Of a stretch of DNA of 64,000 nt, positions 3,611 to 53,662 are shown one piece after another. The DNA comes from Blastocystis sp. Blastoise (lineage: Eukaryota > Protista > Bigyra: Opalinata). The notes under the pieces were generated by a model. The model saw nothing but the letters and a program-made list of their open reading frames with translations, was not told the origin of the DNA and made no database searches. Where the stretch lies: contig JBBPEB010000007.1 of the NCBI GenBank assembly GCA_039096225.1, positions 1,240,001-1,304,000 of the forward strand, in the 5' to 3' direction. Numbering within the stretch: the first letter of the stretch is position 1; each line of letters begins with the position of its first letter. A program made the position numbers and the translations under genes.

Positions 3611-3688
<78 letters not shown>

Positions 3689-3955: not shown

Positions 3956-3994
<39 letters not shown>

Positions 3995-17714: not shown

Positions 17715-17742
17715 TGAGCGACCGATATGGAAAAATATAAAT

Positions 17743-22029: not shown

Positions 22030-23067
22030 TTAATGAAAAGAAGGATAACCAGAATAATGTTTTTTATTTAAATAAGGATTGAAAATGCGTCGTTGACTAT
22101 CTTGTATGATTTGATCTTGTATGATTTGTAAGATGGATTCTTTAGGTTTATCTTTTTCATCTCGTTCAATACCTTTCAATGAGACTTCTTCTTCAACAGG
22201 TAAAAACTTCTTCATTTTCTTTTCATATGTAGATACACGTTCATTAGGACGTTTAATACCACTACCTGATACTTCACCTTGTTCTTCTCGTTTCTCTTTT
22301 TCACTATCTTCTTCTGTCCATTTCCTTTTCTTTACCATCTTATATACATTCTGTTTACTACCACAATCAGGATTTGTCCATATTGTTAAATCATCACTAC
22401 CTTGTTTTAACATAAAGAATTGATGTGGATCATTCATTAATTCTTCATCTGTAAGAATTTCATTTAGATTCGATGGCATAATCTTTAATTTATCTGGTAA
22501 GAATCCAGGATCACGTTTTAAGATTTGACTATTAATAAAGAAATGAGATACTTGACTTAATATAGATTGATTGGTAACATCTGTATGACTTTGAAGACAT
22601 ATAATAGCATTCTGTTTATAATGACGACCTTTAGATAATATAGATACAATCAATTGTTTGGTTTGTCTAGATAATGGATAGATATCATCCAATACAATAA
22701 AATTATGTTCTGGTAATTTATATGTATTGACTAATTCATCAACAGTTTTAATCTTTTTAAATTTATCATCTACAGAATCATACCATTTATAATCAATTCC
22801 AGCATGTTCACAAATATCTTGAAAGGATGTATAACATTCATTCTTATTGGATGCATCAGGACAAATTACTGTGACTTGTTTATATTTATTTTTAAGATCC
22901 ATAGAACATAAGAGGTTCACAGTTAAGAAAGATTTTCCTGAGAATGTTCTTGCAATAATCAATATGAATTTTGATTCATATGTTTTATGATGGGATTTTC
23001 CATATTTAAATTCTAAGACTCCACATCCTTTACGTGTTTCTTTTAATGGATTTATTTTATTCACCAT
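22030..23067 (-). CDS. A32-like (FtsK-HerA) genome packaging ATPase
   Basis: Walker A ILIIARTFSGKS, Walker B FIVLDD, and the A32 signature LSKGRHYKQNAIICLQ. Confidence 0.9.
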   Translation of the reverse strand: MVNKINPLKETRKGCGVLEFKYGKSHHKTYESKFILIIARTFSGKSFLTVNLLCSMDLKNKYKQVTVICPDASNKNECYTSFQDICEHAGIDYKWYDSVDDKFKKIKTVDELVNTYKLPEHNFIVLDDIYPLSRQTKQLIVSILSKGRHYKQNAIICLQSHTDVTNQSILSQVSHFFINSQILKRDPGFLPDKLKIMPSNLNEILTDEELMNDPHQFFMLKQGSDDLTIWTNPDCGSKQNVYKMVKKRKWTEEDSEKEKREEQGEVSGSGIKRPNERVSTYEKKMKKFLPVEEEVSLKGIERDEKDKPKESILQIIQDQIIQDSQRRIFNPYLNKKHYSGYPSFH

Positions 23068-23903: not shown

Positions 23904-25127
23904 TTAATTGGTTGCACCATCTCTAACAAATTTAACAAATATAAAATGAGCATATAAAGTATAAGTACCACTAGTAATATTTGCACCATTATATTCAGTT
24001 AATAAGGAGATATTAACTTCACAACCACTACGAGTATTGACATCAACAACACTTGAAATAGGGAATATATAAATAGGTTGTTCATACCATTTCTCACCAT
24101 TCAAAGGAGATTGAGGATGACTATTACATCTCCAAGTATTATAAAGCATAGCATTAGGAATAATTTGTGATGGATTCGTTGTTTTATATGTAGTAGGGAA
24201 ATCCGTCTTTGGTAAGATATTTTGACCACCAATTTGGAATTGACACATCTTCAATAATTCAGTCTTAATAGGAATCATACTCTTCTCTTGAGTTGTAAAA
24301 TATAACATACAGTAATCAGGTACGAAAACAACACTTCTATTGGATAAGAATTGTTGTGGAGTTGGTTTACCTGCTGTTGTGAATGTTTGTGAATAAACAG
24401 GTGTAGTAAATGCAGATATTTGACAATTATTAGGAATACATTTAATCAAAGCACGTGGATCATTACCAAAATTAATATCATAGATTTGTTGAAGATGAAT
24501 ATAAACACGATCAAATGTTAATGCAGTGATTTTAGTGGTTCCAGTAAATAGATTCTTTAAATAATTTGTAACGAATTGCATCTTCAAAGATTTTACTTTA
24601 ATAGCACAATCAAATGTACCAAGACCAGTAATAAGAGATAAAGGAATAATAACTTGAGCTTTAGTAGAACTTTGCATTCCAGAAATACTGCTTAATGTTG
24701 TATTATATAAGCATTCAGTCATACTATACATAGATTTATCAATTTCATCTTTACTTAATTCTTTAATAGTAACAAATTTTCTTGCTTTACTGGATTCAAT
24801 AGAAGATTCAGAATAATTAATAAGAATATCTTGACCCGTAGGAGATACAAACGTAAGATCTGTAGTAATTTTATCAATAATACTATAGATATTAGAATGT
24901 TGTACAACAGAACTAGTTGTAGCTGCATTTGTTGTAATATTGAAATTCAGTTCTAAGAATGAATTACTGAAATCAATAAAAGGACTATCCACTGAATTAT
25001 ATAAGAATTCAAATGGATAAGGTTGATTTAATAAATCTTGACTTGTAGAAACTAGAATAGGAATTTGTACAGGTTTAATAGTTTGATTTGCCTTTGAAGG
25101 TAAGAATTGTCTTGGGAATCCTTCCAT
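23904..25127 (-). CDS. Major capsid protein-like (double jelly-roll), paralog 1
   Basis: 407 aa, beta-rich; FEF..FIDFSNSFLELNFNI, NIYSIIDKI and IIPLSLITGL resemble the Polinton/PLV MCP N-terminal pattern. Confidence 0.75.
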   Translation of the reverse strand: MEGFPRQFLPSKANQTIKPVQIPILVSTSQDLLNQPYPFEFLYNSVDSPFIDFSNSFLELNFNITTNAATTSSVVQHSNIYSIIDKITTDLTFVSPTGQDILINYSESSIESSKARKFVTIKELSKDEIDKSMYSMTECLYNTTLSSISGMQSSTKAQVIIPLSLITGLGTFDCAIKVKSLKMQFVTNYLKNLFTGTTKITALTFDRVYIHLQQIYDINFGNDPRALIKCIPNNCQISAFTTPVYSQTFTTAGKPTPQQFLSNRSVVFVPDYCMLYFTTQEKSMIPIKTELLKMCQFQIGGQNILPKTDFPTTYKTTNPSQIIPNAMLYNTWRCNSHPQSPLNGEKWYEQPIYIFPISSVVDVNTRSGCEVNISLLTEYNGANITSGTYTLYAHFIFVKFVRDGATN

Positions 25128-25303: not shown

Positions 25304-26776
25304 TTAAATATCACGTACACTACGTACAGCAATCATATGTAATGTATAAGGATGCTTCTCATTTAGTTCAGTATTAATATGTTTATAAATACCAGCATGA
25401 GAAGCAACGGCATAAGAAGCACCAGTGTCAGGTGTCCATATTTTAGTAGTTTCATTATATGTACATGTATATCCATCAGGAACAGTAGATGAATCAGCAT
25501 GACCATATTCAATATCATGGACATCTAGATTACAATCAAAATTCATTTCTATACCACTATCTGATTGGATATTCATTAATGCTTTAGTTGGAATAATATA
25601 AATAGGATGTTTAATCCATTCATCATATTTAAGAATAGTTTCAGGATTTGAATTATCAGCCCATAAACAATATAGATTTTTATTAGGACAAGATAAACTA
25701 GCAGTTTCTTCATTATTGAAGACATGACCTTTAGTAGTAAGATTATGATAATACATTTGAGTAGGGAATTCAGTTTGAGGGAACATTTGAACATCACCAA
25801 TCAAACAACTTTGATATTTAGGCCATACAGATGGACTAGCTACATTACTAATAGTTGTTGAACTATAACCATTTGTAAACCAGTATAATATATATTCAGG
25901 TATAAATGGTAAAGCTCTATTGATATTGAAATGATCACTAGTTATTCTTGTATTTTGATAATCGACTTGAATACATGTAGGTATAGTTTTATATAATTCA
26001 TTCGTTTGGAATTGAATATCTTTATAAGTCATTAAATTCATAGTAGCTGATTCCAATTCAAATGTCTTAAACCATTTTTCATCAGTTAGATGTAACCATT
26101 GTGTTGATAATTTAGCACCACCATTCTTGAAATAAATACTCATATTATTATCAATTAAGGATTCAATTGTACTCGTTCTAAATAGCATATTGAAATGTTT
26201 AGTTAATATTAAAGAATCTCCATCAACACCTAAACCACTAATGAGATATAAAGGAATAGCAATATGAATAGATTGTTTTGGATGTGCACGTATATAACGA
26301 ATAGAATTCAATTCATAAGTATCTGCAGATAAATCTTCACCATACATAGATTTTTCTAAATCATTCTTACTGATATCTTTTAATAAAATCATCTTACGAC
26401 CACGTGAAGCATGTGTACAGTTTTCTTCATATTTCAAAGCACGATCAGATCCATCAGGTAAAGTATAAACCATTTCAACATCAGTGGAATCAATAATAGA
26501 ATAAATATTAGCTTTCTGAACTAATTGATCCAAGAAATATTGACATAATTGATCATAGGTGAAACTAACAGAAGTACCTGTTTCATCTAAATAAACAGAA
26601 ACTGGTCCAGCTTTATCTGTTACAGTTGCCTTGACAGTAAGATCCAAATATGATTGATTGAAATTGATATAAGTATTATCCACATTAGTCCAATGATATT
26701 GAAAGATATAAGGACTTGATAGAATATCAGTATCACTTTGAATAGGAATATTATCTTTAATTCTTAAGATTCTCAT
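25304..26776 (-). CDS. Major capsid protein-like, paralog 2
   Basis: Collinear similarity to 23904-25127: YINFNQSYLDL, NIYSIID, DLEKSMY, IPLYLISGLG, FIPEY, FPQTEFPT, PIYIIP, YTLH. Confidence 0.7.
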   Translation of the reverse strand: MRILRIKDNIPIQSDTDILSSPYIFQYHWTNVDNTYINFNQSYLDLTVKATVTDKAGPVSVYLDETGTSVSFTYDQLCQYFLDQLVQKANIYSIIDSTDVEMVYTLPDGSDRALKYEENCTHASRGRKMILLKDISKNDLEKSMYGEDLSADTYELNSIRYIRAHPKQSIHIAIPLYLISGLGVDGDSLILTKHFNMLFRTSTIESLIDNNMSIYFKNGGAKLSTQWLHLTDEKWFKTFELESATMNLMTYKDIQFQTNELYKTIPTCIQVDYQNTRITSDHFNINRALPFIPEYILYWFTNGYSSTTISNVASPSVWPKYQSCLIGDVQMFPQTEFPTQMYYHNLTTKGHVFNNEETASLSCPNKNLYCLWADNSNPETILKYDEWIKHPIYIIPTKALMNIQSDSGIEMNFDCNLDVHDIEYGHADSSTVPDGYTCTYNETTKIWTPDTGASYAVASHAGIYKHINTELNEKHPYTLHMIAVRSVRDI

Positions 26777-31690: not shown

Positions 31691-34600
31691 TTAATTTGGT
31701 ATAGCATATAAAGTATTATCTATTAAAATTCGTTTTGTTGATGACGTATTATGATATTGATCTTCACTATAAACAATTTCTTCTTTCTTAGATAAACAAT
31801 TGGATAAACAGAATAAATCTGTATCTACACATTCATTATAAGTATTATCAATCATTAAACCACAAATACCAATAGCATTCCCTCCCTTATAGAAATTTGA
31901 AGTATGTTTTCTATGAATATTCACAATATCTATAGAATTAAATGTATCTTTACTACTTAAACAACCAAATAAAGCATTTGTAAATTTATCTAAATCCTTC
32001 TTAATCGTAAATTGATTATTATTATTCACTTTCTTATAACTATTAAAAATATCTTCAATAGTAACTACATTCAAATAATAAGGATCTATAGTAATATGGT
32101 TATCAACAAAAGATTTCAAATCATATCCTTCTGTACTACGATCAAAGAATCGTTTCTTACATTCACTTATATGATATTCATTATCTAATTCATGCATATC
32201 TAATTGCATACTAGAATAGAAATAATTACTTACTAGATAACTAAAGATAATAGAACGATTCTGATAGAATTTATCGGATAGAGTATAATCCATTTCATAA
32301 TGATTTGGTTTCAATCTCTTTTCTACTGTCTGTTTACGTTTCGGTAAATTATGATCTACATAATCTTCATATAAATTAGCATTACCAGGAGGGAAATAAC
32401 GACAACATGAAGGTAAGAAACAGACTCTTCTTTCAATAGGACCAGCATTCACAGCAGTAGGTTGGATATTACTTGTCATAAATAAAGTACCCGTGAAATG
32501 AACTTTTGTAAATATATTACTGAATAATTTACGAGCACTAGCACCTTCTTTCTTTTCTGCTATTTCTTTAAATACTTTAGAAGAGAATGGATTAAATGTT
32601 TTCTTTCTACCAGTAACATCTTCTTCTATTAATTCATTCATATAATACATTGTTTTATTAGACATATCTACAATCTTAGGAGCTATAGATGTTTCTTCTA
32701 AATTATCTGGATTTACTATAATACATTGATTACTACCTACAATACGAGATATTAAATCAGTTGTTATTGTTTTACCATTACTACCTGTACTACCATATAA
32801 TATATAAGAAACTGTTTTCTGAGTATTGACATAGAAAGCAGTGGTTAGAATACGTAACATAATACTTTCATATTTCTTATCGAATTCACAATATCTTGCA
32901 ATATGTTGTTCAAATAATTGGATAATATCTTTCTGTTCATTATTAATATTCCAACTTACATTAAATTCAGTATCAATTAATAAATCTTCAAATACCATAT
33001 CTTCTTTATGATATGGTTGGATATAATATTGTCTAGGATCTTCTTCTGTAGATTCTTTTGGATATAAATAACCAAGTTGTGTATAGATAACACGTTCTTT
33101 ATGAACCATATAAGTATCTAAATATTCTTTATAAGATTTACCATAAGTCTTCAAATAACGATTCAACCATTCTTTATAATGATATTCATTAGTAACAGAA
33201 GCAGACATTATTTTATCAACTATTTTTTGATGTTGTTCATTCTCTTTGGAATATAATCTTGATAATTTGAATTTCTCGACAATCGATTTCATAAATGTAG
33301 TTATTTTGGTTTCAAAGAAATTAATATCATAATTATTCTTACAACGTCTTAAGATATTATATTCATCAAATGTATATAAGATAAAATTATCTTTATCTAA
33401 TATAATAGAAACAATTTCATTAAATTCTAATAATTGAAATAACATAACTAATGTTTGTGAATCTACAAGATTAAAGGATTGAATACATTCTAAAATAGAC
33501 ATAAATATGAAATCATTATCATCATCTTTATTAAATAATTTATTATCCATTAATATCTTCAAAATATAATTATTCGATAAATGAGTAGGATCAACTTGTA
33601 TATGATTCCATGTAGATTCAATTACATCATCACTTCGATCATGACCATAACGTAATGAATAATTTTTAAATAATTCTAATCCTCTTGTTGTATTACAAAT
33701 CTGTTTTGCTGCACAACATAATTTATACCAAGTATTATGGGATTCAAAATAATTCATATCTTCAATAGAACCAATCAATAATAAATATCGTTCTAATAAA
33801 GCTTCTTTAGATGCTGTAGTATCCAATATAGTATCTGTAGAAATCAACATAGGAATATCTTTAATATCTTGTATAGAACATAATATAGTACGTGAACAAT
33901 TATTTAATCTTGCATAATAACGTTTATAACGTGAATATTGTTTTAATTTATAAAAAATAATAGGATTAATAATATCACTTATAAGATCATCTTCATTCTT
34001 ATAATTCAATAATGTTTTGAAATAATAATGTTCATCGATTTCATCATCTATTTTCTTCCATGTTTTATTGGTATATTCTTCATATAATTTATAAGTAGAT
34101 GGAGAATTATCTTTACTACAACCAAGAAACATACAACCATTATTCTTTCTGGGTTTACCAATAACATTATAATCAATGAATTCTTTTATATCTAAATTAT
34201 ATGTTTTACATAAATCAACCAATTTGGTATTCAGAATCATACTATTATATAAGAAAAATAAATAATCACCATTTACAAACCAATTTGTATATATATGAAT
34301 TCCCCATGAATAATGTATTTCATTATGAACTGTCTTCTTATTCACTTCTTTCTTTGTATACAGAAGCGAAATAAATTCTTGATTATAATAATGAATACAA
34401 TGATTACATATTTCTTCAATAAATTCATGAATAAATGAATCTGTTAGAAAAGAAAAATCATTTGATATTTGGTGATAATCTAAATCAAACCATAATCTTC
34501 TATAATTAGTTGATGTATTACAAGGAGTACAATCAATATAATGTAGTAATTCTTTTGGATTTTGATAATTAGTAAATAGACTTTTATAAAATGGTAATGG

Positions 34601-34693
34601 ATTTGGTATAATAATTTCACTATGATTATCTTTTGAATTATCATGATTAAAGGAACCAAAAGTATAAACAAAATGAATTTGTGAATTTTCCAT
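31691..34693 (-). CDS. D5-like primase-helicase (AEP primase + PriCT-2 + SF3 helicase)
   Basis: AEP motifs LWFDLD and WGIHIY; PriCT-2-like HNTWYKL..FKNYS..TWNHI; SF3 Walker A YGSTGSNGKT, Walker B YMNE, motif C MTSN and IERRV. First ATG is at 34693 (1000 aa). Confidence 0.9.
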   Translation of the reverse strand: MENSQIHFVYTFGSFNHDNSKDNHSEIIIPNPLPFYKSLFTNYQNPKELLHYIDCTPCNTSTNYRRLWFDLDYHQISNDFSFLTDSFIHEFIEEICNHCIHYYNQEFISLLYTKKEVNKKTVHNEIHYSWGIHIYTNWFVNGDYLFFLYNSMILNTKLVDLCKTYNLDIKEFIDYNVIGKPRKNNGCMFLGCSKDNSPSTYKLYEEYTNKTWKKIDDEIDEHYYFKTLLNYKNEDDLISDIINPIIFYKLKQYSRYKRYYARLNNCSRTILCSIQDIKDIPMLISTDTILDTTASKEALLERYLLLIGSIEDMNYFESHNTWYKLCCAAKQICNTTRGLELFKNYSLRYGHDRSDDVIESTWNHIQVDPTHLSNNYILKILMDNKLFNKDDDNDFIFMSILECIQSFNLVDSQTLVMLFQLLEFNEIVSIILDKDNFILYTFDEYNILRRCKNNYDINFFETKITTFMKSIVEKFKLSRLYSKENEQHQKIVDKIMSASVTNEYHYKEWLNRYLKTYGKSYKEYLDTYMVHKERVIYTQLGYLYPKESTEEDPRQYYIQPYHKEDMVFEDLLIDTEFNVSWNINNEQKDIIQLFEQHIARYCEFDKKYESIMLRILTTAFYVNTQKTVSYILYGSTGSNGKTITTDLISRIVGSNQCIIVNPDNLEETSIAPKIVDMSNKTMYYMNELIEEDVTGRKKTFNPFSSKVFKEIAEKKEGASARKLFSNIFTKVHFTGTLFMTSNIQPTAVNAGPIERRVCFLPSCCRYFPPGNANLYEDYVDHNLPKRKQTVEKRLKPNHYEMDYTLSDKFYQNRSIIFSYLVSNYFYSSMQLDMHELDNEYHISECKKRFFDRSTEGYDLKSFVDNHITIDPYYLNVVTIEDIFNSYKKVNNNNQFTIKKDLDKFTNALFGCLSSKDTFNSIDIVNIHRKHTSNFYKGGNAIGICGLMIDNTYNECVDTDLFCLSNCLSKKEEIVYSEDQYHNTSSTKRILIDNTLYAIPN

Positions 34694-36757: not shown

Positions 36758-36807
36758 TTTCTAGAACCTTCTCGAACATTCTAGAACCTTCTCGAACCTT
36801 CTCGAAC
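36758..36807. promoter_or_regulatory. HSE array (10 pentamers) upstream of the putative SSB
   Basis: (TTCt[a/c]GAAc[c/a])x5. Confidence 0.8.
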
Positions 36808-36882
36808 ATTGATTCATTTGAAAAGAATATCTAAATATATTAGTATTAAAATACTTATATTTTTACTAAATACTTAACTAAA

Positions 36883-37476: not shown

Positions 37477-37551
37477 ATTTTTAATGTTAAATTTATTTTT
37501 TATTAATATATTTGTTTTGTTTATAAATAATTTTATAATTGAAATAAAAAA

Positions 37552-39180: not shown

Positions 39181-39272
39181 AGAGTAAAGATGAAAAACTT
39201 ATTCAAAATTCAATGAATTGTGATAATCCTATTATATCTGATAAAACTCGTCATGTTACTCCTAGATCCCCT
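39153..39272 (+). other. Predicted -1 programmed ribosomal frameshift signal
   Basis: A_AAA_AAC at 39153-39159 in frame 0, a 7-nt spacer, then stem AGGGGATCTGG..GAGTAA..ATGA pairing with TCAT.TTACTC.CTAGATCCCCT (39251-39272). Confidence 0.7.
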
Positions 39273-39644
39273 GATAATTTCAAACAAACTCTATCTCAAT
39301 ATTGTAATATACCAAATTCTCTAATATCTCAATTATATAATTATGCTTATTTAAATAAACCTACCTCATCTGTTGCTTGTGATCGTGCTGAAAATGTTAT
39401 GAAACAATTAAATAAAACAAATTCTCAATCTTATAATTATTATAATAGTTATGATGATTTTGAACAAAATATAGATCAAGATCAAACTAAATTTAATATG
39501 ATCTTCCATGAAAGTCCTAGTGATCCTTATAATGGTCATTTTGAAGCTGTTATTTATAATGGTAATAAAAATATAGAACACTATTCATCATTAGGAAATA
39601 AACCTACTTTTTCAAAATCATTTATTCAAAATCATAATATTCAA

Positions 39645-42600
39645 CAAGCGTTTCACGACTGGCTACGCCAGCCTACGCTTGAGTTTTGATAGTTGTCATC
39701 TCTTAATTATTATATTTTATGTTGATTTTTTTTTAAATATTATGTTTATTTTTATGTTTTTGTTATTCATTTCTATTTTTTTATTTTTAGGATGAAGACT
39801 ATTTCATATTTTATAAATTATTATTTCAATTGTTTTAGTTGTTATCTTCTATTGTTTAGTTATTAGTTTAGTATATTCTAAATAATTTAATTCACAATTT
39901 ATTCATAATTCCTATTTAACATTTTATATTACATTTTTTGAGTATTATTTCCTTTTTTATTTAGTATTATTTTAGCTATTTTTATTATTGATTATATATA
40001 TTTATTGTTTATTAATGATAATTGATTAGCTCTTGTGTTTTAGTTTTGATCTTATTCATATTTCTATTTCTATTTCTATTTCTATTTCTATTTCTATTTC
40101 TATTTCTATTTCTATTTCTATTTCTATTTCTATTTCTATTTCTATTTCTATTTCTATTTCTATTTCTATTTCTATTTCTATTTCTATTTCTATTTCTATT
40201 TCTATTTCTATTTCTATTTCTATTTCTATTTCTATTTCTATTTCTATTTCTATTTCTATTTCTATTTCTATTTCTATTTCTATTTCTATTTCTATTTCTA
40301 TTTCTATTTCTATTTCTATTTAGTTTTTAGTTTTCAATATTAATTCACTTTTCTTTGTTATTTCATTTATAACTTTCTATGTATTTTATCAATTCATTTA
40401 GTTTTATAAATATTTAGTATTTTAAATAATATCAATATGATTATAAAATACTTTTTCTTTTAAAACATATTATTATCACTTATACCCTACCTTTAAATAT
40501 TTATGTTTTATTTGAATTAGTCTATATAATTATTATTGTGAGAAATAGCTTATTCTCTTGTCTAAAAAAATATTATATATTCTTTTTTATTCTTTTCATA
40601 TATTGTTTTGTTTTATTTTTAAAATATTATAATTTTGATATCTATTTGTTTTTTTATATTTTATCCTTTCCTTTTATATATACTATTATATAAATATTTT
40701 AGAAATTTTATTATACAGCTTTTCTCAATTAATAAATGTTTAATTATATAAATAGTAATCATATCTTGATATTATTTGATAAATATTATAATTTTTCTTT
40801 TATTATACTTATTTTAGTTTGAATTATTAATACAAAAGTACTCTTAATAATTAAAAGATATTTATTACTTTATATAATAAACAAAAAAATTAGAGTCTTA
40901 TTTTAATATTTATCATTAATAGAATCTATTCGTTTTAAGTAAAAGAGAATATTTATAGAGAAATTATCTTTTCATTATTTAAAATTAATTAATTCAAGTT
41001 TAATTCAATTTTTATAGTGTTATCAAAATCATTTCATTAAATGAAACGAAAAACTAAATATAAACCAAAAATTACATTCCATTTCATAACTAAATAGATT
41101 TAAATACTTTGGAAACTTTACCTATTATACATAAAATATAGTTTATAAAACAAATAAGTTATTTTTAAAAAACTCTAAAAGATTTTAACGTTTTTAAATA
41201 CACATATCCACTTTTATTAAAACGAATTTTATATTAATATACATATATATTTAATTTATTATTTTAATTTGTAAAAAATAACTTGAATCTCTTTTGTTTT
41301 AAGTCACAATTACAAAGAATGAGTTCTTTTGAAAGACAAAAAACATTCTTTAAACAATAATAATTTTGTATTTAGTGACATAAAAACGTATTATACAGTT
41401 TTAGAAACAATTAAAATCTTTTTACCCATTTTAACACTCCTATCAAACAGTCAACCATGTTTAATTAAACTAATTTTTAATATTTTATATTCTATAATAA
41501 GTCTATTTATTATTATTATAAAAAGTGACTTGAATCTCTTGACTTAACTATTGTAATTCTAAAAAAATAATTTTTTGAACAACTTAAAATGTTTATTTAT
41601 TGTAGATTTTAATATAAAATACTCTAAAAACACTCAATATATACTTATTGTAACCATTTTAGAAAAATAGACTCATTTTAACATTTTGGTCAAACACACA
41701 ACCACCTTTATTTCAAACAATTCTTTTATTATTATAAACATTAAACACTCTAATACTCATTTTTATAAAAAGTGTATTGAATCTCTTCACTTAAGACAGT
41801 CAAACAGACAATTCAAAATTATTTTATCCTTTAAACTCATTATAAAGTGATAATATTTATAGAATTGCTTTGATATGTGGTTTAGGACATATTTAACTAC
41901 TTTTTTCAAAATTATGAGTCAACATGTGCATATACTCATACACTCGTCTAACTTATTTTTGACTAATTTTTTGAGAAATGCAATACATATAATGTCTAGT
42001 TTTCAAATATGTAAAAATTAATTGTCAAATATGAATTTGATTTGTCAACTTTCGGAAAATTTTTAGAAAAATGATTTTTCAATTTTCAGTTTTTTAACAT
42101 GTTATACTATTGACTCTACTGAACTCATTTCTTAATTAATTTTAAATGTTAAAATTTATATTATTAATATGTGTTATTCTCTATATTTATTTGCTAAAAT
42201 TATATTAAATAATTAAATATTGACTGAGAAATTAATGTTATAAAGTATACCCTTTTTTTCAAAAATTAATTTTTTTATGTTTTGCATATATAATTTTTTA
42301 TCTCAAAAGTTATTTAATATTTTGATAATATTTTTATAAATATATAAACTATAGGTTGTCTAGTTTATATATAAGTTTTATTTATTTTTTAAAAATTAAT
42401 ATTGATGGAGAAATTGTCAAAATAAACTATAGTATCCAAAATGCTTTCTTCTTTTTAAACGACTTATTTCACTAATTAAAGATAATTAAAAGCATATTTA
42501 TTTATTTAAAGCATATTTATGATATTTACAACTTAGTAAGACTGATAACTTACTTTTTAGAACAAACATTGTCTGTATCAGTTCAACATGTTGTCCTAAC

Positions 42601-43867
42601 TTTTTCAAATAAATCATATTCAGTGTCCATGAATGATTCTAAACACTAATTAAAACGTTTTAAGAGTTTATTGAGTTAACATTGTCTGGTGATCTGTTGT
42701 CACAGTCTTTTAAAAACAAAATAAAATTATAAAATATGTTTATTTTGATATATAGTTTTTAAATATAAAGTCTAATGTCAAATAAAATTGTTAATGATGA
42801 AAATATAAACAAAAAACAAATGAAAACTTTTTAAGAAAATTTTTTGAAAGTCATTTTTTATTGAGTTCAACTATTGACTCTTGTCACCTGAGTTTTCAAT
42901 TAATTAAAAAAATGAAAAATATGTATCTGCTATGACATGTCTAGTTTCTAAATATGTTCTAACTTTTTTATTTTATTAAGAATTGATTGAGAAATCACAA
43001 TAACAAACTATACCCTTTTTTGAAAATTTTCATTTTTATGTTTTTCATATAAATGAATGTTTCTCAGTCAATATTAAATATTTAGATAAAATAAAAAATA
43101 TGTATCTGCAATAGCTTATCTTAATTATAATTATACTTTTATTTTTAAAAAATACCCAAAACTCAAGGAGAAAGACGAATAACAAACTATACTATCAAAA
43201 CATCAAAATTTCTATTATCAAATATTTTCTTATTAAAACATATTATTAAAATATAAAACATATTTATGACGGATACAGAGTTAAATAAATACATTAAAGC
43301 TCAAATAAATTTATAAAGAAGGAATGTGTCGGATATCAGTTTGACTTTTGTTGTTATTTAAAGGAATTATTGTGGTTTCAGAGTAGTTGAGGTCAGTATC
43401 ATAACAACTGAAACCATTTTAGAGTTTATAGTTAGTGATGTGTGTATTGATATGTTGTCAAGTTGTAAATATAAACAAATTTACCCGTCAAAACTATTTA
43501 TAAGACTAACCCGTCAATAAAAGTCAATTTTATAAAAATAAATATAGAGTATGTGAAGTGATATAGGAAAAATAAGAAAACAATAAAAAATGAAAATGGA
43601 AAAATAAGTGTTTTTATAAAAATGAAAAATATTGGATAAAATAAAAATAATCCAATAATTTTGGTTAAAATTTTGTGCGAAAATGGTTTTTTGCGATTTT
43701 TAGCCAGAAATTTAGAGTTTTTGAAAAATTTCTTTAACAGTCATTTTCAGAATTGTGTTCCGGATTTTATGATGTTATTTTTATTTTATAAAAGTTAATA
43801 ACAAAGTCAAGAATAGTGAAAGTCTGTGAGACACCGTACGCTACATGAACTAAATTAAGGATATTAA
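39645..43867 (-). mobile_element. Non-autonomous Helitron-like element, family A, copy 2 (4223 bp)
   Basis: Minus strand 5'-TTAATATCCTTAATTTAG...hairpin GGCTGGCGTAGCCAGTC..CTTG-3'; inserted at A|T with no TSD; no long ORF. Confidence 0.8.
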
Positions 43868-43920
43868 TATAATCCTATTCAACACCAAAAAACTACAAGT
43901 AATGCAAATGGTTGCTTTTA

Positions 43921-46900
43921 TTAATATCCTTAATTTAGTTCATGTAGCGTACGGTGTCTCACAGACTTTCACTATTCTTGACTTTGTTATTAACTTTTAT
44001 AAAATAAAAATAACATCATAAAATCCGGAACACAATTCTGAAAATGACTGTTAAAGAAATTTTTCAAAAACTCTAAATTTCTGGCTAAAAATCGCAAAAA
44101 ACCATTTTCGCACAAAATTTTAACCAAAATTATTGGATTATTTTTATTTTATCCAATATTTTTCATTTTTATAAAAACACTTATTTTTCCATTTTCATTT
44201 TTTATTGTTTTCTTATTTTTCCTATATCACTTCACATACTCTATATTTATTTTTATAAAATTGACTTTTATTGACGGGTTAGTCTTATAAATAGTTTTGA
44301 CGGGTAAATTTGTTTATATTTACAACTTGACAACATATCAATACACACATCACTAACTATAAACTCTAAAATGGTTTCAGTTGTTATGATACTGACCTCA
44401 ACTACTCTGAAACCACAATAATTCCTTTAAATAACAACAAAAGTCAAACTGATATCCGACACATTCCTTCTTTATAAATTTATTTGAGCTTTAATGTATT
44501 TATTTAACTCTGTATCCGTCATAAATATGTTTTATATTTTAATAATATGTTTTAATAAGAAAATATTTGATAATAGAAATTTTGATGTTTTGATAGTATA
44601 GTTTGTTATTCGTCTTTCTCCTTGAGTTTTGGGTATTTTTTAAAAATAAAAGTATAATTATAATTAAGATAAGCTATTGCAGATACATATTTTTTATTTT
44701 ATCTAAATATTTAATATTGACTGAGAAACATTCATTTATATGAAAAACATAAAAATGAAAATTTTCAAAAAAGGGTATAGTTTGTTATTGTGATTTCTCA
44801 ATCAATTCTTAATAAAATAAAAAAGTTAGAACATATTTAGAAACTAGACATGTCATAGCAGATACATATTTTTCATTTTTTTAATTAATTGAAAACTCAG
44901 GTGACAAGAGTCAATAGTTGAACTCAATAAAAAATGACTTTCAAAAAATTTTCTTAAAAAGTTTTCATTTGTTTTTTGTTTATATTTTCATCATTAACAA
45001 TTTTATTTGACATTAGACTTTATATTTAAAAACTATATATCAAAATAAACATATTTTATAATTTTATTTTGTTTTTAAAAGACTGTGACAACAGATCACC
45101 AGACAATGTTAACTCAATAAACTCTTAAAACGTTTTAATTAGTGTTTAGAATCATTCATGGACACTGAATATGATTTATTTGAAAAAGTTAGGACAACAT
45201 GTTGAACTGATACAGACAATGTTTGTTCTAAAAAGTAAGTTATCAGTCTTACTAAGTTGTAAATATCATAAATATGCTTTAAATAAATAAATATGCTTTT
45301 AATTATCTTTAATTAGTGAAATAAGTCGTTTAAAAAGAAGAAAGCATTTTGGATACTATAGTTTATTTTGACAATTTCTCCATCAATATTAATTTTTAAA
45401 AAATAAATAAAACTTATATATAAACTAGACAACCTATAGTTTATATATTTATAAAAATACTAGGGTCACGCCGCAGGTCCGGGGCCTAACGGCACCGGAC
45501 CGCGGCTGCATAAAATAATAACAGTTTGGCTTTTATTTTCTTTTTTTCATTATTATATATTATCTATTATATATTATTATTTATTATCTATTATATATTA
45601 TATATTATATATTATATAATATATAATATATTATATATTATATATTATATATTATATATTATATATTATATATTATATATTATATATTATATATTATATA
45701 TTACTTTAATAACACTTCTTATACTCTATATGGAGAGTTACAATCATTTATTGATTGTAATCAGGTTCAATTCCTGATATAAGAATTAAATAAATTCTTT
45801 AAATGATATCAAAAAAACTAAAAACAATACTTGAAAGAAAATTAAAAAACTATTTTGAATCATTATACATATTATTTATTATTTTTAAAATATATTTTGT
45901 ATTTATTAATAATTAAACAACTGTTTTAAACATTTTGTGAGTTTTTAAAGTCAATAACTTTAGAAATGAGTCACAATGTGAAGAACTCTGAAGTATTTTT
46001 AATTCATAAAAGTTATTTAAATAAACGTAATATAATGATTTAAACTCATTTTCATACTTTTTAAAAGAATTAGAAAGCTTTAATCATAACAAAGTCAGCA
46101 TTCATTCTAACTTTGACTAATAAAACATGGTTTAAAAAGTTAATATTTCTTCAGTTGTCTCAAATACTTATTTTAATCATAAATGACTCGAAAAAGTGAC
46201 TTTTAAATAGACTTTACCCATTCAAGATCCACTGTATCAAAACAGTTTCCGTCAGTCTTTTGATATAGTATAGAGTTTATCATACTATTTATTAAATAAA
46301 AGTAAATGTTTTGAATCTCTTTCTTAAAGACCCTTTTTGACACATTATGAAAAGTTGACACACTTAAATTCATTTTTATAAGCTAATATTTACACACTAT
46401 ACTTAATAATACCATAGCTACACATTGGTCATCACTTTAAGACATTTCGTAAACCTTTTGCATTTGCTCATTTACTTTGACCAAAATATTTTCGTCCCTC
46501 CTTTTGATATAATATAGACTGTGTGGTCTAGTTATATGAAAGTGAGATGGAATTTTGAATCTCGTCCTCTAAGTCAAACATTTTCACATTTTTAAAAATT
46601 AAGACCCTTAGAGTTGATTTTTGAAGTTAATTTTTCTACAGTGTTCCAAAAACACGATTTTGCACAAACTGAAGTAAAAATATTTTTTCAATAACTCTCA
46701 CAACCCTTTACACATGCAGTCTCTAAAAATAGATTTTGCTATATTTTTGATATGTTGTAGAGTGTCTCTTAGTGTATACTGAACAATATCTCGTTTCTTA
46801 AAACTCTCATTTTATGACTCTCTTTAAACATATTTTTACTAATTGAAAGACTTAAACACATTTTTAAAAGCTAATATTCACATAGTAGACTTTATATGAC

Positions 46901-49900
46901 TCTATAATCACATTAGTCAACACTTTAGACTTATTAAGAAGACTTTACCATTTGGTCATACACTTCGACCAAAATATTTTTGTCCCTCCTTTTAACATAA
47001 TATAGATCATACACTCTAGTTTAATGAATAAAAGCTCTTATTTTGAATCTCGTCCTCTAAGTCACTCATTTTTACATTTTTTTAAATTTAAGACCCTTAG
47101 AGTTGACTTTTTGACTCAATTTTTCTACAGTGCACGAAATTCACGATTTTATATAAACTGAAGTAAAAATAAATTTTAAATAATAGTCACAACCCTTCAC
47201 ACATCCACTCTCTAAAAATTATTTTCTTTGTACTTTTGATATGTTGTAGAGCTACTACAGCTGTACACTAATTAATATCTCTAAATTTTTTATTCAAAGT
47301 CTAAGACTATGTTTTACACATTCTTTGAAATTTGACAACCTTAAACTATTTATTTAAAGCTCTTATTCATAGAATATACTTAATATATGATTCGAAACAC
47401 ATATATAAACCCTTTTACTTTTTAAGACACATTTTGTCATTTGGTCATACACTTTGACCTTCATAATTTTGACTCTTCTTTTGACATAGAATAGAGTATT
47501 ATCTTTAGTTTACTAAATAAAAGTCATTATATTGAATCTCTCACTCTAAGACCACTTAATTCACATTTTTCAAAATTGTGACACTCAAACTCATTATTTT
47601 AAAACTTTGTTTTAACTATAGTAGTTTGAGGACCTATTGATTACTATGATACAATATTAGTCCATTATAAGAAGATCGAAGAAAAATATCGATCACTCAA
47701 AAATCGTCCTCAGGAGCTCAAAATTGGCACACCTAGGTTTTTTGACCTCCTGAATCAGAATATCATGTCAAAATAAGAATCTAAATTTGACCGTTAAGGC
47801 CTCACGTGTTCAATATGAAAAAGTATTAAAAAATAGATAAATATAAAGAATAAACACGGATAACGTATATTGTGGGATTGAGAAAAAATCAAGTTTACCC
47901 CATGTTTATTTTTCAATTGTCTGGTCAACAATTTTTATCGGGATGATCCCAAAGAGCCAATCAAAAACGACTCAAAAATCATGTTTTCTGTTCTTTTATT
48001 AATAACTTTTTAAATATAAATAATATCGCTTAACCAAATATATGGTGCACAACTACATGTTATATCCTATTGAACTGTGTTTCAACGAAAAGTTAACTCC
48101 CCGTAAGTTTAGAGGAGTTGTGGGTACAAACTTGAGTATATAGTAGCCAATCAAATGAATTTTCCAAAAACTGACCAATGGGAATTTTTTTGCCTATTCT
48201 CATATATATAGTAATGATTATCAAAATATTAAATAACTTTTGAGATAAAAAATTATATATGCAAAACATAAAAAAATTAATTTTTGAAAAAAGGGTATAC
48301 TTTATAACATTAATTTCTCAGTCAATATTTAATTATTTAATATAATTTTAGCAAATAAATATAGAGAATAACACATATTAATAATATAAATTTTAACATT
48401 TAAAATTAATTAAGAAATGAGTTCAGTAGAGTCAATAGTATAACATGTTAAAAAACTGAAAATTGAAAAATCATTTTTCTAAAAATTTTCCGAAAGTTGA
48501 CAAATCAAATTCATATTTGACAATTAATTTTTACATATTTGAAAACTAGACATTATATGTATTGCATTTCTCAAAAAATTAGTCAAAAATAAGTTAGACG
48601 AGTGTATGAGTATATGCACATGTTGACTCATAATTTTGAAAAAAGTAGTTAAATATGTCCTAAACCACATATCAAAGCAATTCTATAAATATTATCACTT
48701 TATAATGAGTTTAAAGGATAAAATAATTTTGAATTGTCTGTTTGACTGTCTTAAGTGAAGAGATTCAATACACTTTTTATAAAAATGAGTATTAGAGTGT
48801 TTAATGTTTATAATAATAAAAGAATTGTTTGAAATAAAGGTGGTTGTGTGTTTGACCAAAATGTTAAAATGAGTCTATTTTTCTAAAATGGTTACAATAA
48901 GTATATATTGAGTGTTTTTAGAGTATTTTATATTAAAATCTACAATAAATAAACATTTTAAGTTGTTCAAAAAATTATTTTTTTAGAATTACAATAGTTA
49001 AGTCAAGAGATTCAAGTCACTTTTTATAATAATAATAAATAGACTTATTATAGAATATAAAATATTAAAAATTAGTTTAATTAAACATGGTTGACTGTTT
49101 GATAGGAGTGTTAAAATGGGTAAAAAGATTTTAATTGTTTCTAAAACTGTATAATACGTTTTTATGTCACTAAATACAAAATTATTATTGTTTAAAGAAT
49201 GTTTTTTGTCTTTCAAAAGAACTCATTCTTTGTAATTGTGACTTAAAACAAAAGAGATTCAAGTTATTTTTTACAAATTAAAATAATAAATTAAATATAT
49301 ATGTATATTAATATAAAATTCGTTTTAATAAAAGTGGATATGTGTATTTAAAAACGTTAAAATCTTTTAGAGTTTTTTAAAAATAACTTATTTGTTTTAT
49401 AAACTATATTTTATGTATAATAGGTAAAGTTTCCAAAGTATTTAAATCTATTTAGTTATGAAATGGAATGTAATTTTTGGTTTATATTTAGTTTTTCGTT
49501 TCATTTAATGAAATGATTTTGATAACACTATAAAAATTGAATTAAACTTGAATTAATTAATTTTAAATAATGAAAAGATAATTTCTCTATAAATATTCTC
49601 TTTTACTTAAAACGAATAGATTCTATTAATGATAAATATTAAAATAAGACTCTAATTTTTTTGTTTATTATATAAAGTAATAAATATCTTTTAATTATTA
49701 AGAGTACTTTTGTATTAATAATTCAAACTAAAATAAGTATAATAAAAGAAAAATTATAATATTTATCAAATAATATCAAGATATGATTACTATTTATATA
49801 ATTAAACATTTATTAATTGAGAAAAGCTGTATAATAAAATTTCTAAAATATTTATATAATAGTATATATAAAAGGAAAGGATAAAATATAAAAAAACAAA

Positions 49901-50900
49901 TAGATATCAAAATTATAATATTTTAAAAATAAAACAAAACAATATATGAAAAGAATAAAAAAGAATATATAATATTTTTTTAGACAAGAGAATAAGCTAT
50001 TTCTCACAATAATAATTATATAGACTAATTCAAATAAAACATAAATATTTAAAGGTAGGGTATAAGTGATAATAATATGTTTTAAAAGAAAAAGTATTTT
50101 ATAATCATATTGATATTATTTAAAATACTAAATATTTATAAAACTAAATGAATTGATAAAATACATAGAAAGTTATAAATGAAATAACAAAGAAAAGTGA
50201 ATTAATATTGAAAACTAAAAACTAAATAGAAATAGAAATAGAAATAGAAATAGAAATAGAAATAGAAATAGAAATAGAAATAGAAATAGAAATAGAAATA
50301 GAAATAGAAATAGAAATAGAAATAGAAATAGAAATAGAAATAGAAATAGAAATAGAAATAGAAATAGAAATAGAAATAGAAATAGAAATAGAAATAGAAA
50401 TAGAAATAGAAATAGAAATAGAAATAGAAATAGAAATAGAAATAGAAATAGAAATAGAAATAGAAATAGAAATAGAAATAGAAATATGAATAAGATCAAA
50501 ACTAAAACACAAGAGCTAATCAATTATCATTAATAAACAATAAATATATATAATCAATAATAAAAATAGCTAAAATAATACTAAATAAAAAAGGAAATAA
50601 TACTCAAAAAATGTAATATAAAATGTTAAATAGGAATTATGAATAAATTGTGAATTAAATTATTTAGAATATACTAAACTAATAACTAAACAATAGAAGA
50701 TAACAACTAAAACAATTGAAATAATAATTTATAAAATATGAAATAGTCTTCATCCTAAAAATAAAAAAATAGAAATGAATAACAAAAACATAAAAATAAA
50801 CATAATATTTAAAAAAAAATCAACATAAAATATAATAATTAAGAGATGACAACTATCAAAACTCAAGCGTAGGCTGGCGTAGCCAGTCGTGAAACGCTTG
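43921..50900 (+). mobile_element. Non-autonomous Helitron-like element, family A, copy 3 (contains a nested Helitron)
   Basis: Reverse complement of 39645-43867 (one homopolymer indel noticed) apart from the 45460-48217 insertion; A|T target. Confidence 0.8.
45460..48217 (-). mobile_element. Canonical non-autonomous Helitron (family B, 2758 bp)
   Basis: Minus strand begins TC (TCATTACTATATATATG) and ends CTAG; GC-rich subterminal hairpin CCGCaGGTCCGG..CCGGACCGCGG at 45471-45505; the empty site in the other palindrome arm (42328/42329) shows A|T insertion with no TSD. Confidence 0.92.
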
Positions 50901-51035
50901 TTATTCTTTACTTTATTTACTTTCTAATGGAAATCTTATGCCTTGTTAAAACATTCTAGAATATTCTAGAATCTTTAATTTATTATATTAATATTTTGTA
51001 TAATTAATTTGTTTTGTTTATTATTTAATACTATA

Positions 51036-51734: not shown

Positions 51735-52670
51735 TTATTCAATTAATTTTTTAAATAAATTATTATTTTCTAAAGATACATAAGAATTAATATGTGTATA
51801 ATCATTATGACATAAAGCAGAAGCAGAATTTTCTATATCTTGGAATGTATTGGTTGTAGTTGTAGCATATAATTTTCTTAATGCATTAATGGTTAATTTT
51901 GGATGGATTTGTTTTAAATGCTTATTCACAAACCAATCAAATGCTTTAGTAGTAAATCCAGTTCTTACAGAAGATTCAAATATAAATTTACGATTTGGAT
52001 TTCTTTTTAAGAGTAATTCTAGATCTTCAATCAATTCTTTTGGTGCATCTAATTGAATTGTAGAGTATTTACCAGCAGTTTTATAATCATTCAATAGAAT
52101 AGAACCAGTGTGTTTCTCTTTATCATAAACAATATAATTCTTATGAATAACTGGATCAATAGTATCTTCTGGAGTTAGAATGAATAATTGAGCATAATCA
52201 GCACGAGCAGGAGGAAGATAGGAGTAAAAATCTAATATTAATCGTAATGGATTATAATTTTCTAATTTATCGTGATATTCATGTAAATATGGAGTCGTAA
52301 TACCATCTTTAATAAGATCTTGAATCAAAGTACGTTTCTTATTATCCAGATATTTTTCATACATTGAATTGATAATCACATAAAATTCACACCATTTATT
52401 TAAAATACCTTCTTTATTTAATGAAGAAACATTACGTATAATAAATAATATCAATTCACATAACGATTTCATTGGACTAATTTTGATTTTACGTTCATTT
52501 ACCATATAATCCATGAATGAATAAGGATTCTTTAAGAATTCTGAGAACTTTTTAAATGGTAATGGGAAAATATATAAATTGAAATAATTGGTTAAACGTT
52601 TTTTCCAAATATCAGAATAATTTGAATTCTGTATAACCAAAAGATACTTGTCATAATTTGTATTTTTCAT
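51735..52670 (-). CDS. Tyrosine recombinase 2 (PLV/virophage type)
   Basis: YSYLPPARADY (R), LNDYKTAGKY (K), TINALRKLYAT, ALCHNDYTHINSY (H..Y); first ATG at 52670. Confidence 0.85.
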   Translation of the reverse strand: MKNTNYDKYLLVIQNSNYSDIWKKRLTNYFNLYIFPLPFKKFSEFLKNPYSFMDYMVNERKIKISPMKSLCELILFIIRNVSSLNKEGILNKWCEFYVIINSMYEKYLDNKKRTLIQDLIKDGITTPYLHEYHDKLENYNPLRLILDFYSYLPPARADYAQLFILTPEDTIDPVIHKNYIVYDKEKHTGSILLNDYKTAGKYSTIQLDAPKELIEDLELLLKRNPNRKFIFESSVRTGFTTKAFDWFVNKHLKQIHPKLTINALRKLYATTTTNTFQDIENSASALCHNDYTHINSYVSLENNNLFKKLIE

Positions 52671-52807: not shown

Positions 52808-52972
52808 ATTGATATACATGCCGCCACATAAAACCACTGGAACACAATTAGTTTCCCCAGTTTCCCTATTATAATTGTGTTTTTGTGTTCCAAAATCCCT
52901 CATTTTTACAATTTTAAGCAATTTGATTGGACAATTCACGATGACGCATCCTATTTCCATAACGGTTACCCT

Positions 52973-53662
52973 TGTTTCCAAAAGTCTCTCGTTATAATCG
53001 TGGTGGTGGGTACATCTTTTTACAAGACCACACCACCACCAGCTTTTCTTTCACCCACTATAAATACATACCTTGATCACTTTACTCTTTTTATATAAAT
53101 TTTTTTATGATTATCATGACTTTTTATATTATTTATTGATCACTATACATACATTTTTATTTTTATATATTCCCGTGATTATTTTTATTATTTCTTTTTA
53201 GATAGAACCATCCATTTCATCTTTTCTCTATATAAAGGGAGGGTCGGGGTGTGTGTTTATTTAGCACATTCTGTGCTTCTTTTCGTATTTCTTTCTGTAT
53301 TCCCGTGATTATTTTACTCACTTTACCAACGATGGAGTCATTTTCCATGAATATTCCCTGTAAAGGGGAGGGTTGGACTGTGTATTTTATTTCTTTTATG
53401 ATTACTATGAGTTTCTCCTTGATCACTTTACGTTTCACGTTGGAATCGGAACACAAATAAATTAAAAATAAATAAACATGGGAAAAATAAATACACACAC
53501 ACACTACCCTACACTCCCATGGTTATTTTACTTCAGAAATGTTATTAATTCTTCCGTCGAGAACAAAAAGGGGGATGTCTTCCCCGCTTATGGCTGCGCG
53601 CGTCGCGCAGACTCTATGCGGGGTTTGCATACCCCCTTCTGCAGTTCGAAGAACGGAAGAAT
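52973..53662 (-). repeat. Right terminal inverted repeat of the viral element
   Basis: Reverse complement of 17023-17714. Confidence 0.95.

What the first reader, a model, noticed from the sequence alone, without database searches (positions are those of the whole stretch)
39645..50900. 11-kb palindrome = two near-identical Helitron-like insertions bracketing the protease catalytic cysteine
Seen: 39645-43867 and 43921-50900 are inverted near-identical copies. The 53-bp spacer (43868-43920) is not filler: it encodes YNPIQHQKTTSNANGCF, the Gln/Cys catalytic segment, and removing both elements at their A|T junctions restores the ORF without loss or gain of a base. Inference: two independent hits 53 bp apart in a 25-kb target are unlikely, suggesting local re-insertion or a coupled inverted double insertion during rolling-circle transposition. 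The result disables virion maturation while the other viral ORFs look intact, so it appears recent. Read-through could also produce a multi-kb hairpin RNA.
Basis: partly seen in the sequence, partly recalled or inferred. Interest (0 to 1): 0.8.

Follow-up and report, generated by a model that had tools for sequence, protein, structure and literature searches.

The report
Mirror-image Helitron pair inside protist virus
Two identical 4.2-kb copies of a likely rolling-circle jumping element sit mirror-image and only 53 bases apart inside a gene, predicted to be a protease, of a virus built into a gut protist's chromosome; one copy was probably made right beside the other, which would be a local copying route that these elements are thought to lack.

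Summary
The palindrome is in the sequence as described. The arms, 39645-43867 (minus) and 43921-50900 (plus), show 0 substitutions in 4,222 aligned bases. They differ by one homopolymer base and by a 2,758-bp canonical TC...CTAG Helitron nested only in the right arm. Each arm runs TT...hairpin-CTTG at an A|T site without target duplication; the closest known ends are those of the Phytophthora proto-Helentron. The 53-bp spacer is viral gene sequence: the three gene pieces match consecutive parts of intact 177-aa homologues, with nothing lost or doubled. The virus is a Polinton-like virus (double-jelly-roll capsid) with many ~99% identical siblings named from a Blastocystis. A single-insertion fold-back artefact does not fit. 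No reads bridging the centre were available, so the structure is unverified. Best reading (0.5): one copy was re-inserted on the opposite strand just upstream of its donor's 5' end. This runs against the Helraiser experiments (no local hopping in 701 events). Rivals: independent hits at a Helitron hotspot (0.27), misassembly (0.12), template switch (0.08). One locus only.

The parts
39645..43867 (-). Left arm: 4,223-bp non-coding Helitron-like element, 5' TT (inner end) to hairpin-CTTG 3' (outer end), inserted at TA|TT without target duplication
   Evidence: no stop-free frame of 70 aa or more other than low-complexity ones among the longest listed
43868..43920 (+). 53-bp spacer = middle piece of the viral protease-like gene (QHQ...NGCF; the predicted catalytic Cys codon is 43913-43915)
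   Evidence: catalytic role inferred
43921..50900 (+). Right arm: identical element in the opposite orientation, inserted at TA|TT, interrupted by a nested Helitron
45460..48217 (-). Nested canonical non-autonomous Helitron1 (2,758 bp; 5' TC, GC-rich hairpin 10 nt before CTAG 3', A|T site; internal 489-bp tandem array 46350-47577); present in the right arm only
   Evidence: (hairpin z -5.33)
50864..50900 (+). 3' terminal hairpin of the large element; its outer stem closes on the last base (mirror copy at 39645-39681)
   Evidence: -10.7 kcal/mol, z -3.36, 1 of 200 shuffles as good
50226..50483 (+). (ATAGAA)43 microsatellite of the right arm; same unit count in the left arm (40062-40319); 13 units in the third copy
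39213..39644 (+). 5' piece (144 codons) of the viral adenain/Ulp1-like protease gene, with the GHF motif
   Evidence: (89 of 144 identical to P0003)
50901..50949 (+). 3' piece of the protease-like gene up to its stop codon
   Evidence: (9 of 15 identical to P0003)
17023..17733 (+). Left terminal inverted repeat of the endogenous Polinton-like virus
   Evidence: 98.5% over 711 nt; 9 mismatches in 709
52954..53662 (-). Right terminal inverted repeat of the virus
23904..25127 (-). Double-jelly-roll major capsid protein (407 aa)
   Evidence: model pLDDT 82.6; Foldseek best hit Sputnik virophage capsid, E 9e-13, then PBCV-1, iridovirus, PRD1
25304..26776 (-). Paralogue of the capsid protein (490 aa)
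   Evidence: 28% identical over 418 columns, E 1e-39
22030..23067 (-). Predicted packaging ATPase (345 aa)
   Evidence: PHROG 2666, E 1.4e-10; packaging role inferred from context
31691..34693 (-). Predicted primase-helicase (1000 aa)
   Evidence: PHROG 1156, E 2.4e-9 over residues 574-749
51735..52670 (-). Putative tyrosine recombinase (311 aa)
   Evidence: weak only: Pfam Phage_integrase E 0.084, below cut-off; no PDB sequence match to a recombinase
12497..15415 (+). Third, 5'-truncated and diverged copy of the same element outside the virus (element positions 1103-4223), same hairpin-CTTG|T end
   Evidence: 191 substitutions; identical tract at element positions 2871-3825 apart from microsatellite length
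15416..15733 (+). Short deleted derivative directly behind the third copy, ending in the same hairpin-CTTG|T

Best explanation
The palindrome consists of two identical copies of a non-coding, probably rolling-circle (Helitron-type) element inserted 5'-to-5' and 53 bp apart in the predicted protease gene of an endogenous Polinton-like virus, and the second copy was likely produced by local re-insertion from the first. Shown: identity of the arms, their ends, the A|T targets without duplication, the in-frame spacer, the arm-specific nested Helitron, the capsid fold. Inferred order: (1) one copy inserts into the viral gene; (2) a RepHel transposase supplied from elsewhere (none is in the window) nicks that copy's 5' end and peels off its strand; (3) fraying or resection at the nick would expose the opposite strand just upstream as single-stranded DNA, the only substrate HUH nucleases cut, and the peeled strand is joined there at the next usable TA|TT, which gives a 5'-to-5' inverted twin; (4) a second, canonical Helitron family later inserts into the right arm. 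Step 3 is a hypothesis; nothing here shows the intermediate. Which arm was the donor cannot be told. The result is a dead protease gene in one of many near-identical viral copies, with no sign of a function for the palindrome.
For: 0 substitutions in 4,222 nt and equal microsatellite length, whereas the only other long family copy in the window has 191 substitutions. All four junctions fall exactly on element ends, at TA|TT, with no flank lost or doubled, which points to a transposase rather than a generic rearrangement. The 3' end of 4 of 4 copies in the window is the same hairpin-CTTG followed by T. Uniform-chance expectation is low: about 0.001 for two hits in the virus; 0.0002-0.2 such pairs per genome for assumed 20-400 copies and 10-30 Mb of target (copy number assumed, not measured). 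Intact homologues run uninterrupted through both sites: 16 of 17 aligned and 2 of 2 related proteins named from the same host species. Viral TIRs keep 9 mismatches in 709 nt, so this assembly does not erase all differences between inverted repeats. Precedents for near-self insertion: duplicated 5' ends of Fusarium Helitrons ascribed to self-insertion (PMC5148889, passages) and a suggested 'local transposition burst' on one chromosome (PMC13342296, passage). HUH nucleases cut only ssDNA, and CTTG-3' ends occur in Helraiser products and maize (PMC4778049, passages).
Against: Helraiser showed no clustering of 701 retransposition events near donors and uses free circles (PMC4778049, passages). [quoted passage not shown] In a burst from one master copy all young copies would be identical, so identity does not prove a donor-daughter pair. 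An identical tract in the diverged third copy shows that copies can be homogenised by conversion or polishing. One locus only; no genome-wide count, no autonomous partner, no read across the centre.
Confidence: 0.5

Rival explanations
1. Two independent insertions of identical young copies from a recent burst, brought together by a hotspot (dispensable viral DNA, or chromatin that attracts Helitrons). Ordinary transposition through free circles.
For: No local hopping for Helraiser (PMC4778049). Third, unrelated Helitron nested in the right arm; two more family ends in the window. Helitrons insert near other Helitrons (PMC12477314, passage); dissimilar adjacent Helitrons from consecutive insertions in maize (PMC2267711, passages). 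Endogenous virophages are preferred targets of Ngaro elements in Cafeteria (PMC8547959, passages). With 400 copies and 10 Mb of tolerant target the expectation reaches 0.2 pairs per genome.
Against: Needs both a high copy number and the same sub-lineage twice; the other long copy in the window is only about 93% identical. TATT occurs 996 times in the virus, so sequence preference alone gives no clustering (5'-to-5' pairs within 53 bp are 0.12% of site pairs).
Confidence: 0.27
2. Assembly artefact: a misjoin of two viral copies or haplotypes that each carry one insertion, or an arm rebuilt from its mirror during long-read consensus.
For: Perfect identity including a 258-nt microsatellite. Many sibling viral copies at about 99% make misjoins conceivable. 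Nanopore base-calling degrades in inverted duplications (PMC7229812, abstract), and the named Blastocystis records were assembled from Nanopore reads (PMC10690189, passages); the window's own assembly route was not established.
Against: A fold-back of one insertion would mirror the flank and the nested element; here the flanks are the unique 5' and 3' parts of one gene, the spacer occurs once, and the nested Helitron with a clean A|T junction is in one arm only. A misjoin would have to pass through 53 shared bases and still needs two real insertions 53 bp apart. TIR differences are retained.
Confidence: 0.12
3. One insertion followed by a replication template switch that copied the element in reverse (no second transposition), using the terminal hairpin as a stall site.
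For: The terminal stem closes on the last base; 2-nt microhomology at both switch points; identical arms.
Against: Both switch points would have to coincide with the element's ends to within 2 nt, and the new copy sits at the same TA|TT motif as the old; no flank is duplicated, unlike the inverted triplications of ODIRA-type models (recalled; only search listings seen).
Confidence: 0.08

Closest known systems
proto-Helentron-Pi of Phytophthora infestans (PMC4067079, passages; PMC11417382, section 24)
   Same: 5' TT start, insertion between A and T, no target duplication, stramenopile host
   Different: Here the end is CTTG, not CTAG; the hairpin is at the 3' end and closes on the last base; no coding capacity; no convincing short inverted repeat found; no sequence comparison was possible
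Canonical Helitron1/HLE1, e.g. Helraiser (PMC4778049, PMC11417382, passages)
   Same: A|T target, no duplication, 3' GC-rich hairpin; the nested 2,758-bp element meets TC, hairpin, CTAG and A|T in full
   Different: The large element lacks 5' TC and 3' CTRR; Helraiser shows no local hopping, whereas this pair suggests it
Adjacent or self-inserted Helitrons: maize AF466202 pair (PMC2267711, passages), FoHeli multiple 5' ends (PMC5148889, passages)
   Same: [quoted passage not shown]
   Different: The maize pair is dissimilar and head-to-tail in the text (the abstract says head-to-head); FoHeli cases are same-orientation 5' duplications; here two identical full copies face 5'-to-5' across intact target DNA
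Ngaro retrotransposons inside endogenous mavirus-like elements of Cafeteria (PMC8547959, passages)
   Same: Transposons interrupting endogenous small DNA viruses in a stramenopile
   Different: Those are tyrosine-recombinase retrotransposons; no inverted pairs in the passages read
Endogenous Polinton-like viruses of protists (PMC10120064, passages); Blastocystis MELD viruses (PMC8502044, passages)
   Same: 15-30 kb, TIRs, capsid, ATPase, primase-helicase, putative tyrosine recombinase, protease
   Different: The Blastocystis hominis MELD viruses carry PolB and a retroviral-type integrase, neither detected here; this virus has two paralogous major-capsid-like genes

Membership tests
Helitron1/HLE1 (large element) | 5' TC | tested here: not met
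   starts TT in 2 of 2 full copies
Helitron1/HLE1 (large element) | 3' CTRR | tested here: not met
   CTTG in 4 of 4 ends; CTTG is a reported variant end (PMC4778049)
Helitron1/HLE1 (large element) | GC-rich hairpin near the 3' end | tested here: met
   z -3.36
Helitron1/HLE1 (large element) | Insertion at A|T without target duplication | tested here: met
   TA|TT at 2 of 2 sites, frame and length match intact homologues; a 2-nt boundary ambiguity remains
Helitrons in general (large element) | Autonomous partner encoding RepHel with the same ends | not testable with these tools
   no genome held; no RepHel hit among the 21 window ORFs scanned
HLE2 (Helitron2/Helentron) | Short asymmetric terminal inverted repeats of 12-17 nt | tested here: not met
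   best match between the first 80 and last 150 nt is an A/T-rich 11-mer with 1 mismatch
HLE2 (Helitron2/Helentron) | Insertion at T|T | tested here: not met
   a T|T reading would shift the gene's frame relative to the homologues
proto-Helentron | 5' TT, A|T target | tested here: met
proto-Helentron | 3' CTAG and HLE2-type RepHel | tested here: not met
   CTTG end; no coding sequence to place. Works like it; not filed as a member
Helitron1/HLE1 (nested element 45460-48217) | TC, hairpin, CTAG, A|T | tested here: met
Polinton-like virus | Double-jelly-roll major capsid protein | tested here: met
Polinton-like virus | Terminal inverted repeats, 15-30 kb | tested here: met
   711-nt TIRs, 25,437 nt without inserts
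Polinton-like virus | Packaging ATPase, primase-helicase, tyrosine recombinase | tested here: inconclusive
   ATPase and primase by PHROG hits; recombinase below cut-off
Polinton/Maverick in the strict sense | Protein-primed PolB and retroviral-type integrase | tested here: not met
   no such Pfam or PHROG hit among the viral ORFs scanned
Clan CE (adenain/Ulp1-like) protease | Fold and His-acid-Gln-Cys order | tested here: inconclusive
   model of homologue P0001 has pLDDT 58; best viral-library hit 'Protease [MELD virus sp.]' E 1.5e-4; PDB hits mostly clan CE but none at E<=0.001; no Pfam family passes; motif order recalled

The most novel reading that the evidence does not exclude
A Helitron-type family with TT...CTTG ends has a cis route that drops a daughter copy onto the opposite strand within about 50 bases upstream of the donor's 5' nick. 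It would thereby build multi-kilobase perfect palindromes in one step and show that rolling-circle transposition can proceed by concerted local strand transfer, not only through free circles.
Probability: 0.3. Interest if true: 0.75.

Novelty: new variant of a known kind. Interest (0 to 1): 0.42.

Why it matters
Whether Helitrons move only through free circles or also by direct strand transfer next to the donor is an open mechanistic question, and the one experiment read here found no local hopping. An excess of identical 5'-to-5' pairs with short spacers would be a simple genomic signature of a cis route, and this locus defines exactly what to count. It would also name a way long perfect palindromes arise. 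If it is a one-off hotspot event, it is an ordinary knockout of one of many copies of a protist virus. The locus also gives the ends of an apparently undescribed Helitron-like family and a multi-copy endogenous virus in Blastocystis.

Tried and rejected
No whole genome is held, so copy number, other pairs, sibling protease genes and an autonomous partner could not be counted. Run search: 3 runs of 1 study, no RNA holder listed; best share 0.19. Laying on 43790-43998: 0 contigs in 3 of 3 runs; no conclusion. Related-locus scans found nothing: protease alignment in viral and metagenome contigs, capsid alignment in viral contigs, 25-nt element end in metagenome contigs. No tRNA or Rfam match. A diverged 5' end for the third copy upstream of 12497 was sought and not found (score 165 against shuffle mean 165). 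Wide structural search and Atlas gave no result. Yang and Bennetzen 2009 was not held; only a review's sentence on it was seen. Rejected: one fold-back element with 4.2-kb TIRs (the spacer is viral gene sequence and a solo copy exists); a TT target-site duplication (2 of 4 ends are followed by TA); head-to-head Penelope (no coding frame, clean A|T ends); self-priming at the 3' hairpin (would join tails, not heads). Literature searches that found no description of identical 5'-to-5' Helitron pairs: (listings; 30 of 37 listed, 2 of them opened). Searches that found no description of this virus family. PMC10690189 has 0 occurrences of 'helitron' or 'palindrom' in its main text; its supplements (repeat table S3) were not seen and may bear on this.
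Full report
OBSERVATION. Self-comparison of the window shows two long inverted blocks covering 39643-50902. A global alignment of the reverse-complemented left arm (39645-43867) with the right arm (43921-50900) has 4,222 aligned columns and 0 substitutions, one 1-nt homopolymer indel and one 2,758-nt insertion in the right arm. The 95% upper bound on divergence is about 0.07%. Both arms carry (ATAGAA)43.

THE ELEMENTS. In its own orientation each arm begins TT and ends in a GC-rich hairpin followed by CTTG; both sit at TA|TT. The hairpin folds at -10.7 kcal/mol (z -3.36) and its outer stem closes on the last base. The same end occurs 4 times in the window, always followed by T: the two arms, a 5'-truncated copy at 12497-15415 and a short derivative ending at 15733. 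The longest stop-free frames in the element are low-complexity, so it is non-autonomous. The nested insert (45460-48217, minus) is a canonical Helitron1: TC start, hairpin (z -5.33) 10 nt before CTAG, A|T site. The large element fails the TC and CTRR tests of Helitron1 and the short-inverted-repeat and T|T tests of HLE2 (definitions from PMC11417382, passages and section 24). Its ends are closest to the Phytophthora proto-Helentron (5' TT, 3' CTAG, A|T; PMC4067079, passages), and CTTG is a reported variant end (PMC4778049, passage). It works like a Helitron; membership is unproven without a RepHel partner.

THE TARGET. The insertions lie in a 25,437-nt element bounded by 711-nt inverted repeats at 17023-17733 and 52954-53662. 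Its 407-aa ORF folds confidently (pLDDT 82.6) into a double jelly roll matching Sputnik, PBCV-1, iridovirus and PRD1 capsids (best E 9e-13); the 490-aa neighbour is a paralogue. ATPase and primase-helicase are supported by PHROG hits, a tyrosine recombinase only weakly; no PolB or retroviral-type integrase was detected. This fits a Polinton-like virus (gene set as in PMC10120064, passages). Ten viral ORFs and 1 host ORF (HSP20) fall in 90% clusters whose named members are all 'Blastocystis sp. Blastoise'; 4 further look-ups (3 viral, 1 host) were not in the collection. Viral cluster sizes are 4-21. Identity to siblings was 98.7-99.7% (9 of 9), 95.3-99.7% (10 of 10) and 99.1-99.8% (14 of 18 others) for three ORFs. 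So the host is most likely a Blastocystis with many young copies of the virus. The gene models skip the small protease ORF, so sibling protease genes were not seen.

THE SPACER. The 144-codon 5' piece finds 2 homologues among 3 candidates (62% identity), with clusters of 15 and 6 members. I aligned 17 of these 21 (4 short partial ones dropped); 16 of 17 run uninterrupted through QHQ...GCFWYCLLYL, one diverges at its C-terminus. Compared piece by piece with two 177-aa members, the window's pieces give 89 and 88 of 144, 12 and 12 of 17, and 9 and 8 of 15 identities at consecutive positions; the spacer scores 70 against a maximum of 35 for 300 random 53-mers. The pieces total 177 codons plus stop. 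Two longer proteins named from the same host species also run through both sites. That this is a clan-CE protease and that the spacer Cys is catalytic is inferred: the homologue model is weak (pLDDT 58, the Gln-Cys segment under 50), the best viral-library hit is a MELD-virus protease (E 1.5e-4, 1 hit at E<=0.001), PDB hits are mostly clan CE but none reaches E<=0.001, and the motif order is recalled.

REAL OR ARTEFACT. A fold-back of a single insertion would mirror the flank and the nested element. Instead the flanks are the unique 5' and 3' parts of one gene, the spacer occurs once and the nested Helitron is in one arm with a clean junction. The viral TIRs keep 9 mismatches in 709 nt (4 in the core, 5 at the inner edge), so inverted repeats in this assembly are not all homogenised. 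Against complacency: the named Blastocystis records come from Nanopore, Flye and short-read polishing (PMC10690189, passages and section 28; the window's own route was not established), Nanopore accuracy falls in inverted duplications (PMC7229812, abstract), and no read evidence for the centre could be obtained. I leave 0.12 for misassembly.

MECHANISM. Under uniform insertion two hits in the virus are within 53 bp and 5'-to-5' with probability about 0.001; per genome 0.0002-0.2 such pairs are expected for assumed 20-400 copies and 10-30 Mb. TATT is common (996 sites in the virus), so target sequence does not explain the clustering. All four junctions lie on element ends with no flank lost or doubled, which argues for transposase action twice. 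The simplest reading is that one arm is the daughter of the other. A route that predicts the geometry: the transposase nicks the donor's 5' end; fraying or resection there would expose the opposite strand just upstream; HUH nucleases cut only single-stranded DNA (PMC4778049, passage); joining the peeled strand at the next TA|TT gives an inverted twin facing 5'-to-5'. The other Helitron then inserted into one arm. This route is my hypothesis. Against it, Helraiser showed no clustering near donors in 701 events (PMC4778049), and a hotspot is plausible: an unrelated Helitron hit the same stretch, Helitrons are said to insert near Helitrons (PMC12477314, passage), and transposons favour endogenous virophages in Cafeteria (PMC8547959, passages). 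Identity also dates the pair only softly: the third copy has 191 substitutions yet an identical tract at element positions 2871-3825 apart from microsatellite length, so conversion or polishing can equalise copies. Odds: local re-insertion 0.5, independent hits 0.27, artefact 0.12, template switch 0.08.

CONSEQUENCE. This viral copy's protease-like gene is broken in two places while the other long ORFs are open and match sibling lengths. With many near-identical siblings, loss of maturation for the family is not shown. A hairpin RNA would need read-through of more than 4 kb; it was not testable.

COMPARISON AND NOVELTY. Adjacent Helitrons are known but dissimilar and head-to-tail in the text (PMC2267711, passages); Fusarium self-insertions duplicate 5' ends (PMC5148889, passages); the passages read on the active wheat family showed nothing on local insertion (PMC13286980). 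Searches gave no description of identical 5'-to-5' pairs, but most hits were seen as listings only. Blastocystis MELD viruses with PolB are known (PMC8502044, passages); searches showed no account of this family. The scan's own notes held nothing for this genome or for look-alike DNA. Verdict: a real-looking, well-defined single event; a new variant of a known kind; interest 0.42, rising to about 0.75 if a genome-wide excess of such pairs appears.

Noticed in passing
window 17023-53662: Multi-copy endogenous Polinton-like virus in a Blastocystis, without PolB, with two paralogous major-capsid-like genes; the capsid has 87 homologues among 2,363 candidates, mostly unnamed ENA/Logan proteins at about 55-61% identity, plus more distant relatives named from the same host species. 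No description found.
   Followed up: partly
window 12497-15415: Third family copy is a mosaic: 85-95% identical to the palindrome arms but identical over about 680 unique bases before the microsatellite; suggests gene conversion or recombination between copies, or a polishing effect.
   Followed up: partly
window 15416-15733: Short deleted derivative of the element directly behind the third copy, with its own hairpin-CTTG|T end.
   Followed up: no
window 11440-11536: Tandem duplication of an about 49-bp motif upstream of the third copy; no alignment to the element's 5' part beyond chance.
   Followed up: partly
window 17023-17150 and 53535-53670: The viral TIR end motif recurs inverted about 110 nt inside the TIR, and the bases just outside the right end resemble those after the internal copy; no target duplication is evident. 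Could be recombinase att-like sites.
   Followed up: no
window 29849-31645: 598-aa viral ORF with motifs that look like a second tyrosine recombinase by eye (recalled motif); no Pfam or PHROG hit, and no significant similarity to the 311-aa ORF.
   Followed up: partly
window 36233-38732: Contigs of run X1 cover parts of three viral ORFs with 4-12 differences each; the run type is a guess, so this is not evidence of expression.
   Followed up: no
window 1673-2320, 9250-10899: Host genes: intronless HSP20 and a PPR-repeat ORF; flanks are intron-rich with (AT)n and (ATT)n tracts.
   Followed up: no
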